Notes under the pieces: generated by a model | The model's database searches: none | Told to the model about the DNA's origin: nothing | Seen by the model: only the letters and a program-made list of their open reading frames with translations | Shown here: one piece after another, positions 14,297-21,910 of the stretch | Numbering within the stretch: the first letter of the stretch is position 1 | Layout: each line of letters starts with the position of its first letter | From: Eledone cirrhosa | Lineage: Eukaryota | DNA: 64,000 nt | Direction: 5' to 3' | Assembly (NCBI GenBank): GCA_964016885.1 | Contig: OZ024766.1 | Location: 1,240,001-1,304,000 of the forward strand | Program-made: the position numbers and the translations under genes

Positions 14297-14302
<6 letters not shown>

Positions 14303-14895
14303 TGCCGAATTGGTTCTTCCCTTAATTTAAGACGTTAAAAGTCAGTTGGCCGCTATTTCTAGCACATCAAGTAACAAGGTAAGAGACAGCCTCGTTCATA
14401 CTTAATAGTTTATTTCACTGGGTGGTGTTGTTTGTTTTACCGGGTGTTGTGAATTGATATAACTGAAGGTATTAAATTATATCAGGGACTTGTAACATAC
14501 GACACCGGTGTCAAGGGGAGTGAAGTATTACCAACGACACCGAGTATCTGGCATGTTAATTATAACTTTAATTAATCTAATTATATCTTGTGTGGTAATT
14601 ATCTCATGTTAAGGTGAAAGTTAATATTCTGTAGATAACATAGAGTGAGCTACATGTTCCAGGGTAGGTGTTCCATCTCCTACATGATTAAATATTTCAT
14701 TTTATGAGAAACTACGCTACATCGTGAATTGGTTGTTCCACATTTTACAGGACAGTGAGAAATAGGCTTATATCACCAACATCTGAACAATTAGCTTTCC
14801 TGGTCTTTCTTGACTTTACACTTGGACTTGAAATATAAAGTACGTATTATTTGTATTGTTAACACAGCAGATAGTGTGTACTTTTTCTACAGTCC
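14297..14895 (+). promoter_or_regulatory. Shared upstream/5' UTR block of the inverted ZNF pair (inverse of 21310-21910)
   Basis: Near-identical reverse complement, bounded by (TA)n in both copies; includes AAG|GTAAGA (~14378) and ttttacag| (~14750). The regulatory role is inferred from position. Confidence 0.55.
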
Positions 14896-15386
14896 GTGGT
14901 GAACAATCCTGGTTTATTAGGTCAACACACGTATACAGAAATAAACACACGATCATATATTCTGCCACCTCATCCCGAATATATACACACACACACATTC
15001 TTTCCGGTCATCAGTCTCATACTGTCATGTCTATTCTTACTTTACAGTTGTGTCAACTGAGAGTTCCATTATAATCTGTAGAAGAACGACTTTGACCAGA
15101 ACATCTGCTATCGGTCATTTATAGACAAAACATCTTGTTTTAGACTACATAGCATCCATTAACTATAGCCACCTTTCTTAACAAAGAAATAGAAGTATTT
15201 TTCTCTACAACAATATATATGTAGCACTTGGAGAGGACTCACTTTGCTACAAGAATTTTATTGGTATGTAGAAAATATATCTACATTGCATATTTTCCAC
15301 ACGTGTAAATAGTCCTACGATATCTAAGACAAGAAACTGAACTGTAACATATAAACAGATATTTCCCAACTTCTTCAAGAATTACT

Positions 15387-16688
15387 ATGGAAGACGTTAA
15401 ACACTCGGACATTTCTAACACATCTGTTTCTACCAATATAGATACAGTTACACAGACATACAGTGGTGAGATGGACATTTCTAAAACACCTGTTTCTACC
15501 AATATAGATACAGTTACGCAGACATACAGTGGTGAGCTGGACATTTCTACCACACCTGTTTCTACCAATATAGATACAGTTACACAGACATACAGTGATG
15601 AGAAACCTTTACCTAGTGAAACATGTACTGAACAAGGATCTTTACACAGAAATATTCCTGAATATAGCTGTGAGATTTGTAGGAAAACTTTCTCTTCAGA
15701 AGATGAATTATCCACACACAAAGGCTCACACACTAAAGACAAACCCTTCCAATGTCAAATATGTGAAAAATCTTTCACTGCGAAATCGCATCTCATTTAC
15801 CACATTCGAAGTCACACCGGAGAAAAACCTTTCCACTGTGAAATATGTGGGAAATCTTTTGTCAACAGCAATGACTTAAGAAAACATGTAAGAATCCATA
15901 CTGGAGAGAAACCCTACCATTGTGAAATATGTGGGAAGTCTTTTGGCCATAATAGTCATTTGTCTACACATATACGGATACACACAGGAGAGAAACCTTA
16001 TCACTGTGAAATATGTGCGAAATCTTTCACTCAGTACTCCAACCTTATTACACATCTACGTAGACACACTGGGGAGAAACCTTTCCACTGTGAACTATGT
16101 GGAAAAACTTTCGTTGAAAATGCTTGTCTTCTAGTCCACAAACGAACACACAGTGGTGAGAAACCTTACCATTGTGAAATATGTGGGAAATCCTTTGTTA
16201 AAAACGATTATCTAATTGTACACAAGAGAACACATACAGGAGAGAAACCATTTCATTGTGAAACTTGTGGGAAATCTTTTACTTCAAATTCTAATATTGT
16301 TCGTCACATTCGTAGCCACACAGGAGAGAAACCGTTTCACTGTGAAATATGTGGGAAATCTTTTCTTACAAGTAGCCACTTAAGCAGACATAAAAAATCA
16401 CACACCGGAGAAAGATCTTACCACTGTGAAATATGTGGTAAATCATTTGTCTCAAACAGTGATTTATCACGACACAACCGAATACATACTGGAGAAAAAC
16501 CTTATCATTGCGATGTCTGTGGAAAATCTTTCTCTGTAGATTCTCATCTAATTACCCACAAACGTTGTCATACCGGTGAAAAACCCTACCACTGTGAAAT
16601 ATGTGGGAAATCTTTTGTCTGTAGCAGTCACTTAAGTCGACACAAGCGAATACATACAAAACGACAGTCTCTTTACTGTGAAACCTGA
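15387..16688 (+). CDS. C2H2 zinc-finger protein, 12 fingers, N-terminal 3 x 21-aa T/S-rich repeat
   Basis: 433-aa ATG-initiated ORF; repeat [23 protein letters not shown] at ~17218. Confidence 0.9.
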
Positions 16689-16749
16689 GACGTTACCTCT
16701 TCAAAATCTCAACTTTTTTTTCCTTCAACTTCGTAAAGGAACCCACAAC

Positions 16750-17140
16750 CCTGTAGCGAGACAGGACAGAACTATTTTATTGGTGTGGTGTAATTTGGCC
16801 ATACTTGGTGAATTTCCATCCCTGTAATGACAGGACATAACTATTTTATTGGTGTAATTTGGCCATACTTGGTCAATCTCCAATCCTGTAATGACAGGAC
16901 ATAACTATTTTATTGGTGTAATTTGGCCATACTTGGTCAATCTCCAGCCCTGTAATGACAGGACATAACTATTTTATTGGTGTAATTTGGCCATACTTGG
17001 TCAATCTCCAACCCATAACTATTTTATTGGTGTAATTTGGCCATACTTGGTCAATCTCCAGCCCTGTAATGACAGGACATAACTATTTTATTGGTGTAAT
17101 TTGGCCATACTTGGTCAATCTCCAGCCCTGTAATGACGGA
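16750..17140. repeat. 64-bp minisatellite (~6 copies) in the putative 3' UTR
   Basis: cctgtaatgacaggacataactattttattggtgtaatttggccatacttggtcaatctcca at 16821, 16885, 16949 and onward. Confidence 0.9.
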
Positions 17141-19502: not shown

Positions 19503-19514
19503 TTAAGGATGTCT

Positions 19515-19918
19515 CATATTTCACAGTTAAAATGTTTTCCTCCAATGTGTGTTTGTGTTTATTTAAGTTACGATTAGAGAAGAAAGATTTCCCATATATT
19601 TCACAATGAAAGGGTTTCTCTCCAGTGTGACTATGTATGTGTCTAAGAAGACAGGTTTCTCAGTGAAAGATTTTCCACATATTTCAGTGATAGGGTTTCT
19701 CTCCAGTATGTGTTCTTTTGTGAAATAGAAGTTTAGTATTTTCAGTGAAAGATTTCCCACATATTTCACAATGATAGGGTTTCTCTCCAGTATGTGTTCT
19801 CTTGTGTCTAGCTTGTGACAAAAGATTTCCCACATATTTCGCAGTGATAGGGTTTCTCTCCAGTGTGACTACGTGTCTAAGAAGACTAAGTTTCTCAGTG
19901 AAAGATTTCCCACATATT
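19515..19918 (-). pseudogene. About 5 decayed zinc fingers downstream of the stop of the minus-strand ZNF
   Basis: Finger DNA (ggagagaaaccctatcattgtgaaatatgtgggaaatct) continues with several small deletions and frameshifts. Confidence 0.85.
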
Positions 19919-21232
19919 TCACAATGATAGAGTTTTTTCTCCAGTGTGAGTTCTTTTGTGTTCAGTTAGTTTACTGGTTCTGACAAAAGATTTCCCACAA
20001 ATCTCGCATTGGAAGGGTTTTTCTCCAGTATGACCCCGTTTGTGGTTGATAAGAGTTGAATTAGCAGAGAAGGATTTTCCACATATTTCACAGTGGAAAG
20101 GTTTTTCTCCAGTGTGAACACGTATGTGGCTAACCAGATTAACATTCGAAGTGAAAGATTTCCCACATCTTTCACAATGAAAATGTCTATCTCCAGTGTG
20201 TATTCTTCTATGTTTTGTTAACGCACTACTGTCGATAAACGATTTTTGACATAATTCACACGTATATGGTTTTTCTCCAGTGTGTATTCTTTTGTGTTTC
20301 TTCAAATCCCCCTTAACAGCAAAAAATTTCCCACATATTTCACATTGATAAGGTTTTTCTCCTGTGTGTGTCCTTTTGTGTTTAGTTAAATCACAGGTTT
20401 TAACAAAAGATAGTCCACATATTTCACAGTGGAAGGGTTTTTCTCCTGTGTGAGTTCGTATGTGTAAAACAAGATTACCACTCCGAGGAAAAGATTTCCC
20501 ACATATTTCACAGTGGAAGGGTTTCTCTCCCGTGTGACTACGTATATGTAAAACAAGGTTAGAACTCTGAGGGAACGATTTCCCACATATTTCACAGTGG
20601 AAGGGTTTCTCTCTCGTGTGTGTCATTTTATGCCTGTTTAATTGACTATTAGTGAGAAAATATTTTCCACATATTTCACAATGGAAGGGTTTTTCTCCAG
20701 TGTGACCACGAATATGGACAACTAGAAGATATTTACAAGTGAAACATTTCCCAAATATTTCACAATGAAATGGTTTCTCTCCTGTGTGACTTCGTATATG
20801 GATAACAAGGTGAGATTTTTTAGTGAAAGATTTCCCACATATTTCACATTTGAAAGGTTTCTCTCCAGTGTGGCTACGTATGTGCCTACCAAGACAATTT
20901 TTCCGAGTGAAAGATTTCCCACATATTTCACATTGGAAGGGTTTGTCTTTAGTGTGTGTGCCTTTGTGTGTGGATAATTCATCTTCTGAAGAGAAAGTTT
21001 TCCTACAAATCTCACAGCTATATTCAGGAATATTTCTGTGTAAAGATCCTTGTTCAGTACATGTTTCACTAGGTAAAGGTTTCTCATCACTGTATGTCTG
21101 TGTAACTGTATCTATATTGGTAGAAACAGGTGTGGTAGAAATGTCCATCTCACCACTGTATGTCTGTGTAACTGTATCTATATTGGTAGAAACAGGTGTG
21201 GTATAAATGTCTAAGTGTTTAATGTACTCCAT
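19919..21232 (-). CDS. C2H2 zinc-finger protein, 13 fingers (finger 4 has Cys->Phe), N-terminal 2 x 21-aa repeat
   Basis: ATG at 21232 (MEYIKHLDI) aligns with paralog start MEDVKHSDI; ends through an A-run frameshift (TGEKTLSL*). Confidence 0.88.
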
Positions 21233-21309
21233 ATTATATATATATATACAGGTGTCCAAGAAATTATTAATTGTATGACTGCGTGCGTGTAGTCTTAATA
21301 ATTGTTCAC

Positions 21310-21910
21310 CACGGAGTGTAAAGAAGTACACAATATCTGCTGTGTTAACAATACAAATAATACGTATTTTATATTTCAAGTCCAAATGTAAAGTCAAGAA
21401 AGACCAGGAAAGCTAATTGTTCAGATGTTGGTGATTTAAACCTATTTCTCACTGTCCTGTAAAATGTGGAACAACCAATTCACGATGTAGCGTAGTTTCT
21501 CATGAAATGAAATATTTAATCATGTAGGAGATGGAACACCTACCCTGGAACATGTAGCTCACTCTATGTTATCTACAGAATATTAACTTTCACCTTAACA
21601 TGAGATAATTACCACACAAGATATAATTAGATTAATTAAAGTTATAATTAACATGCCAGATACTCGGTGTCGTTGGTAATACTTCACTCCCCTTGACACC
21701 GGTGTCGTACGTTAAAAGTCCCTGATATAATTTAATACCTTCAGTTATATCAATTCACAACACCCGGTAAAACAAACAACACCACCCAGTGAAATAAACT
21801 ATTAAGTATGAACGAGGCTGTCTCTTACCTTGTTACTTGATGTGCTAGAAATAGCGGCCAACTGACTTTTAACGTCTTAAATTAAGGGAAGAACCGATTC
21901 AGCAGTGTAC
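21310..21910 (-). promoter_or_regulatory. Inverted copy of 14297-14895
   Basis: Direct reverse-complement match; regulatory role inferred. Confidence 0.55.

What the first reader, a model, noticed from the sequence alone, without database searches (positions are those of the whole stretch)
14297..21910. Inverted ZNF pair with a constant 5' cassette and unrelated variable finger arrays
Seen: ~600 bp upstream plus the N-terminus and finger 1 are nearly identical (one visible difference, S/T, across ~180 coding bp), but from finger 2 onward (~15756 / ~20930) the helices are almost wholly different. A block just upstream of the ATG also differs. Both arms begin at (TA)n. Inference: gene conversion or cassette capture keeps regulation and the effector end constant while specificity is swapped, a possible diversification mechanism for this ZNF expansion.
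Basis: partly seen in the sequence, partly recalled or inferred. Interest (0 to 1): 0.75.

Follow-up and report, generated by a model that had tools for sequence, protein, structure and literature searches.

The report
Neighbouring zinc-finger genes overwrite front ends
Two facing zinc-finger genes, likely from an octopus, and two more neighbours share a nearly identical 1-kb front end, yet at least two of their DNA-reading arrays descend from other gene clusters, so gene conversion likely overwrote the fronts of old, different genes and would put different DNA specificities under one shared control region.

Summary
Genes A (+) and B (-) are 98% identical over 14290-14907 and differ at 4 of 240 coding bases before an abrupt step in finger 2, and at 305 of 891 after it. 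Synonymous differences jump from 0/39 to over 50%. This is not a private pair: the front module (upstream DNA, acidic leader, atypical finger 1) marks a family of at least 200 zinc-finger genes on many chromosomes, which this scan noted before on other DNA (e1-10121354). New here: A, B and two neighbours upstream of the window (C, D) form one clade by front end (97/96), while C's and B's arrays group with genes about 1 Mb away (100/100); both forced topologies are rejected. In C the shared tract is a patch of about 1 kb bounded on both sides, and its array and 3' UTR follow the distant relative. So front ends were likely overwritten by gene conversion; new specificities were not built on a cassette. 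No transposon ends were seen, (TA)n is an old family trait, and collapse is unlikely. Expression and function are untested. It is a known process in a lineage where my searches found no report.

The parts
14236..14296 (.). (TA)n at the outer end of arm A; a family trait, not an insertion target
   Evidence: a microsatellite lies here in 60 of 85 family units against 12% of random 100-mers, and 30 of the 60 have shared family sequence further upstream
14297..14907 (+). Non-coding front module of gene A, local type shared with B, C and D; likely promoter/5' UTR region (inferred)
14627..14896 (+). 270-nt core, the most uniform part of the whole family (3% mean pairwise difference); holds candidate splice acceptor 14749/50 and donor 14839/40 (motifs only)
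   Evidence: a 24-mer has 160 genome matches, control 0
14908..15382 (+). Long-form block kept by A, replaced by a short junction in B, C and D
15387..15662 (+). Leader of A: three 66-nt repeats plus a stretch that looks like a decayed finger (by eye); no Pfam domain on B's equivalent
   Evidence: homolog in Octopus bimaculoides XP_052833736.1
15663..15746 (+). Atypical finger 1 with acidic helix (SEDELST in 48 of 98 units); predicted not to read DNA
15756..15780 (+). Breakpoint zone between A and B, inside finger 2
15747..16688 (+). Array of A, fingers 2-12; no close relative among 98 sampled units (best finger matches 75-86%)
18930..19506 (.). Small element with TTAA at both ends and short inverted termini, inserted at the 3' end of B (piggyBac-like; label recalled)
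   Evidence: sequence; internal 60-nt repeat
19510..19918 (-). Frameshifted, decayed fingers after the stop of B
19919..20941 (-). Array of B, fingers 2-13 (finger 4 lacks a cysteine); fingers 8-11 and 13 are colinear with the C27:380-434 kb cluster at 85-96%
20942..21232 (-). Leader (two 66-nt repeats) and finger 1 of B
21301..21910 (-). Non-coding front module of B, ending at a short (TA)n

Best explanation
A and B are old, separately descended members of a large zinc-finger family whose front ends (about 1 kb of upstream DNA, leader and finger 1) were likely overwritten by repeated gene conversion with each other and with two neighbours, C and D. Shown: the shared tract, its sharp ends and the conflicting ancestry of fronts and arrays. 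Inferred: exchange starts in the family's near-uniform core and stops where homology fails, at the (TA)n or diverged flank upstream and at the first variable helices (fingers 2-3) downstream; several events were needed; the result would be four different DNA-binding arrays under one version of the promoter and leader. Ordinary ectopic recombination is enough; no dedicated machinery is needed.
For: Step, not slope: synonymous differences 0/39 in leader plus finger 1, against 0.61 in register and 0.53 for best-matching fingers, framework codons included. Front-end trees: A, B, C, D are one clade (SH-aLRT 97 among 96 units; 97/96 among 20), with 14 shared alleles rare elsewhere. Array trees: C fingers 4-8 group with C27:2456529 (100/100), B fingers 8-11 with the 380-434 kb cluster (100/100); holding ABCD together is rejected (p-AU 3e-83 and 9e-6), and holding array relatives together on the front end is rejected (2.5e-4, 4e-42). 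C is 97-100% like B from -780 to +120, about 65% upstream, and 83-97% like 2456529 from +300 to +1020; its 3' UTR also best matches 2456529 (84%). Incompatible 2:2 site patterns: AD|BC 5 sites, AC|BD 2 sites. The six ABCD pairs are the top six of 2652 array-unrelated pairs for front identity.
Against: Polarity is clear only for C. B's own 3' end is interrupted by an insertion, and A's array has no close relative in the sample. C's upstream flank does not specifically match 2456529. Without ABCD there is no effect of distance (p 0.39) or orientation (p 0.70) on front identity, so strong local conversion is not a family-wide rule. Most variable sites in the four fronts fit one simple tree (A,(D,(B,C))). 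Groups and array blocks for the AU tests were picked after seeing similarity. One assembly, no reads of this individual, no RNA.
Confidence: 0.72

Rival explanations
1. Array replacement: A-D are recent duplicates of one gene, and arrays (with 3' UTRs) were copied in from other clusters.
For: It gives the same tree conflict. Arrays do move in this family: C27:368564 has 8 of 11 fingers 92-100% like C27:527843, but upstream DNA 96% like its inverted neighbour C27:387198. The four fronts mostly fit one tree.
Against: C and D lose similarity to A/B directly upstream of the tract, and the four share no close 3' flank, unlike recent whole-gene duplicates. C's array is 19% diverged at synonymous sites from its nearest sampled relative, so no recent donor is in the sample (about half of the family).
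Confidence: 0.14
2. Crossovers between the inverted fronts flip the intervening segments (5.4 kb between A and B, 12 kb between C and D), mixing fronts as a recurrent inversion.
For: The orientations are -,+,+,- within 52 kb; the arms are 97-99% alike over about 1 kb; site patterns are mosaic.
Against: A crossover exchanges sequence but does not by itself make different fronts alike. B and C, the most similar pair (98.9%), are in direct orientation. No orientation effect in the family sample.
Confidence: 0.06
3. The front module or whole unit is a mobile element that captures or carries finger arrays and inserts at (TA)n.
For: 200 copies on at least 14 contigs, some solitary, each with module plus array; many share a 3' region with tandem repeats; C sits in a spacer that lacks it in three paralogous units.
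Against: Shared ends between related copies vary from about -650 to beyond -3400 and from +1000 to beyond +6000. No terminal repeats, poly(A) or target duplication were seen by eye; no systematic target-duplication search was run. (TA)n is often internal. Core and leader counts are similar (160 and 200), and 30 of 30 top module loci carry a finger gene.
Confidence: 0.04
4. Assembly collapse or mis-polishing made the arms alike.
For: The region is highly repetitive, and no reads of this individual were available.
Against: Each front has private alleles (A 9, B 2, C 4, D 14), distinct indels and repeat numbers, and they share rare alleles rather than the family majority.
Confidence: 0.03
5. Selection alone: a conserved front and rapidly evolving helices after a single duplication.
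For: Contact codons vary far more than framework codons family-wide; leader and finger 1 have dN/dS near 0.5.
Against: Synonymous framework sites step from 0 to over 50%, and the arrays have closer relatives elsewhere.
Confidence: 0.01

Closest known systems
Octopus-specific C2H2 zinc-finger expansions (Holzinger et al. 2025, PMC12513265; parts 1-2 of 7 and a term search read)
   Same: Large lineage-specific clusters of poly-C2H2 genes; the leader and acidic finger 1 have a homolog in O. bimaculoides (XP_052833736.1).
   Different: The paper has no occurrence of conversion, promoter, N-terminal or recombination; it describes neither the shared module nor chimeric genes.
Mouse V1R promoter homogenisation (Stewart and Lane 2007, PMC1955453; abstract and 4 passages read)
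   Same: Broad (over 500 nt) upstream regions uniform among paralogs; the authors suggest gene conversion.
   Different: Receptor genes with mapped start sites. Here the tract runs into coding DNA and joins different array lineages, and no start site is mapped.
KRAB-ZNF and cyprinid FiNZ-ZNF families (Wells et al. 2023, PMC10547256, passages read; Bruno et al. 2025, PMC12575710, abstract and passages read)
   Same: Constant acidic N-terminal part ahead of variable arrays; recombinogenic clusters.
   Different: No KRAB or other Pfam domain in the leader. Leader and array share one open frame. Neither paper's text contains 'gene conversion'. Repressor function is untested here.
Interlocus gene conversion in multigene families (general knowledge; PMC3749932 and PMC6993855 seen only as search listings)
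   Same: Patchy, bounded tracts of high identity between diverged neighbours, with tree conflict.
   Different: Nothing in mechanism. The particular outcome is that one front end is spread over different DNA-binding arrays.

Membership tests
Interlocus gene conversion tract | Abrupt identity step that includes silent sites | tested here: met
Interlocus gene conversion tract | Tree conflict between tract and adjoining sequence | tested here: met
Interlocus gene conversion tract | Tract bounded on both sides | tested here: met
   C: about -790 to +240. A/B: bounded by (TA)n and finger 2.
Interlocus gene conversion tract | Both flanks trace to the recipient lineage | tested here: inconclusive
   C's downstream array and 3' UTR match 2456529; the upstream flank is about 65% to all
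Interlocus gene conversion tract | Non-reciprocal transfer, polarised by orthologs or pedigrees | not testable with these tools
   no related genome held
Poly-C2H2 (Kruppel-type) zinc-finger genes | Tandem C2H2 fingers with TGEKP linkers in an open frame | tested here: met
KRAB-ZNF | KRAB domain N-terminal to the array | tested here: not met
   no Pfam match on B's residues 1-57 at E up to 1 among the 25 best families shown; an unseen upstream coding exon is not excluded without RNA
FiNZ-ZNF | 28-residue FiNZ domain on its own exon, cyprinid fish | not tested
   no FiNZ model available; lineage and the single open frame differ
Octopod C2H2 expansion | Nearest leader homolog in Octopus | tested here: met
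   only P0254 (O. bimaculoides) of 273 fetched proteins gave a single-domain match to the leader profile
Octopod C2H2 expansion | Placement in a published expansion cluster; neural expression | not testable with these tools
   no RNA holder listed; published trees not available
Gene-carrying transposon | Fixed termini shared by dispersed copies | tested here: not met
Gene-carrying transposon | Target-site duplication or terminal repeats | tested here: inconclusive
   none seen by eye; no systematic search
Retrocopies | Loss of upstream non-coding DNA, poly(A) tail | tested here: not met
   dispersed copies keep the non-coding module

The most novel reading that the evidence does not exclude
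The 270-nt core is a selected regulatory element that doubles as a recombination hotspot, making the front module an interchangeable promoter-plus-cofactor plug for over 200 octopod zinc-finger genes. Conversion, and flips between inverted arms such as A/B, keep re-pairing regulatory versions with arrays, and the acidic finger 1 acts as a KRAB-independent effector conserved since the split from Octopus bimaculoides.
Probability: 0.15. Interest if true: 0.75.

Novelty: new variant of a known kind. Interest (0 to 1): 0.42.

Why it matters
Cephalopod zinc-finger expansions are read as duplication followed by regulatory divergence. This locus shows the opposite move: diverged genes likely pulled back under one front end. 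It warns that trees of these genes mix histories, and that 5' identity does not date a duplicate. It also gives a clean test: four different arrays with 96-99% identical fronts should be co-expressed if the module is the promoter. The uniform core is a single handle for probing over 150 genes at once.

Tried and rejected
Expression: no RNA holder listed. Contigs of four public runs laid on 14297-15850 cover the module but none spans it, and they give no exon structure; the arrays were not read-checked. Rfam on 14250-15400: only sub-threshold miRNA matches on the (TA)n. Hidden coding in the core: stops in all six frames and no codon periodicity. Word-indexed protein searches with the leader found nothing; whole-protein B returned generic, mostly vertebrate, finger proteins among the 120 listed. 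The protein atlas gave no answer. Eight weaker leader-profile hits were looked up; only P0254 showed a single-domain match. Positive selection on contact codons: pN 0.101 against pS 0.074 in 208 close finger pairs, but pairs were chosen on framework identity, so this is inconclusive. Cause of core uniformity: private changes are rarer in the core than in flanks for clustered intact genes (odds 0.38, p 4e-7) but not for dispersed intact (0.87) or dispersed broken copies (1.0). This fits conversion, or selection limited to active clustered genes; 'dispersed' was judged from fetched stretches only. A general effect of distance or inverted orientation was rejected once A-D are removed. Literature: six searches listed no paper on 5' conversion among cephalopod zinc-finger genes; the library lacks most subscription papers, and no supplements were opened.

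Full report
Observation. The window is G000:C27:1240001-1304000 of a 3.0-Gb genome. Gene A (ATG 15387, stop 16688, 12 fingers) and gene B (reverse, ATG 21232, stop 19919, 13 fingers plus decayed ones) face each other. They are 97.9% identical over 14290-14907, differ by a 475 versus 64 nt block, differ at 8 of the first 85 coding bases and by one 66-nt repeat, then at one base over 15540-15755. The change is a step at about 15780 (4/240 versus 305/891; permutation maximum 15.5 against 101), with no trend along fingers 2-12. Silent sites step too: 0 of 39 before, 0.61 in register and 0.53 for best-matched fingers after, framework codons included. Helix selection alone cannot give this.

The family. 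The non-coding module gave 41 scored matches from 1108 candidates. All 30 loci returned, A and B included, carry the same leader and a finger array downstream (L019 confirmed). A 26-mer of the leader has 200 matches and a 24-mer of the core 160, controls 0; the first 100 listed leader matches lie on 14 contigs. From fetched stretches I found 111 anchors and kept 98 units; 13 were dropped as secondary anchors or for having fewer than four fingers. The sample favours C27 clusters and likeness to A. Family-wide mean difference is 0.14 in the 5' flank, 0.12 in the middle, 0.03 in a 270-nt core (14627-14896), and synonymous 0.08 in the leader and 0.24 in finger 1; leader plus finger 1 has dN/dS near 0.5 (86 units). 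Identity falls to 0.63 at the helix of finger 2. So a constant front and a variable array is the family's normal design. The leader and acidic finger 1 match an Octopus bimaculoides protein (39% over 93 residues), which is my tool evidence for an octopod.

What is special here. Two more members lie upstream of the window: C (C27:1209720, reverse) and D (C27:1221895, forward). A-D form one clade on the front end and share 14 alleles rare elsewhere. Their arrays do not group. C's fingers are colinear with C27:2456529 (fingers 4-8 at 92-95%), and B's fingers 8-11 and 13 with the C27:380-434 kb cluster (85-96%); D's late fingers resemble the 4.2-Mb cluster more weakly, and A's have no close match. 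AU tests reject each topology on the other region (groups and blocks were chosen after seeing similarity, 20 of 98 units used). Of 58 genes whose nearest front is at least 96% identical, only 5 have an unrelated array with that neighbour: A, B, C, D and one other. The six ABCD pairs head the list of 2652 array-unrelated pairs.

Direction. C's profile is about 65% to all upstream of -790, 97-100% to B through finger 1, then 83-97% to 2456529 from +300 to +1020, and its 3' UTR also best matches 2456529. The four genes share no close outer flanks. C's and B's helices were conserved since the split from their array relatives (pN 0.12 versus pS 0.17; 0.08 versus 0.28). The simplest reading is that old genes had their fronts overwritten. 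Incompatible site patterns and differing tract ends (A/B to the (TA)n, C and D to about 14346) imply several events. Against this: most sites fit one tree, polarity is clear only for C, and a second chimera (C27:368564) shows that arrays can also be copied between loci.

Rivals. A mobile cassette is unlikely: ends shared by related copies vary widely, no terminal structure was seen, and (TA)n precedes the module in 60 of 85 units, in 30 of them with family sequence continuing upstream. Collapse is unlikely given private alleles and indels, though no reads of this individual were seen. Inversion between the arms is possible but untestable here. Without A-D, neither distance nor orientation predicts front identity, so intense local conversion is an event at this locus, not a demonstrated family rule. 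Why the core is so uniform stays open between conversion and selection.

Function. That the module is promoter and 5' UTR is inferred from position and from conserved splice-like motifs (donor GTAAGA or GTAGGA at 14379 in 67 of 79 units; acceptor context identical in 66 of 90; second donor context in 84 of 93). No RNA was available. That finger 1 does not bind DNA is inferred from its acidic helix. Targets of the arrays are unknown; Wells et al. (PMC10547256, passages) predict transposon binding for metazoan zinc-finger proteins and included octopus in that analysis.

Comparison and verdict. It works like interlocus conversion of V1R promoters (PMC1955453, passages), and is built like KRAB or FiNZ families without their domains. 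The cephalopod C2H2 survey (PMC12513265) does not mention conversion or promoters, and six searches listed no direct report. This scan had already noted the family (e1-10121354) and similar front-end homogenisation (e1-10347654, e1-9877731); those notes are unchecked and are not support. The new part is direct evidence that one front version was spread over arrays of different ancestry. Real and well supported, by a known mechanism: interest 0.42.

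Noticed in passing
G000:C27:368564 (L071), 387198 (L073), 527843 (L087): Second chimera: upstream DNA 96% like the inverted neighbour 387198, while 8 of 11 fingers are 92-100% like 527843, 159 kb away.
   Followed up: partly
window 5370-7550 and 35-371; L038, L040, L041: A second family of 24-25-finger genes without the module, in three tandem units plus one inverted copy; 93-98% alike between tandem units.
   Followed up: partly
G000:C27:1205753-1211705 (L038): Gene C lies in about 6 kb that replaces about 2 kb of the spacer seen in the paralogous tandem units; one junction has a CTAG end with a nearby hairpin at an A/T site, Helitron-like (label recalled), with no matching other end seen.
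   Followed up: partly
window 14627-14896: Public contigs of two coded organisms hold the core with many contigs and few differences; B alone among A-D has lost the conserved candidate donor at 14840.
   Followed up: partly
window 9790-13470: 59-nt minisatellite, 62 copies at 94%, between the 25-finger gene and A.
   Followed up: no
window 16760-17144 and 18271-18544: 64-nt and 48-nt tandem repeats downstream of A.
   Followed up: no
L042, L048, L050, L051, L056, L066, L067, L069: Many dispersed family members share a 3' region with about 91-nt and about 70-nt tandem arrays; several are frameshifted.
   Followed up: partly
window 25798-26133 and 31327-31662: The same degenerate reading frame occurs twice in opposite orientation.
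   Followed up: no
window 26483-27535 and 57817-60230: A 350-codon low-complexity open frame, and a 2.4-kb (AACC)-type simple repeat array.
   Followed up: no
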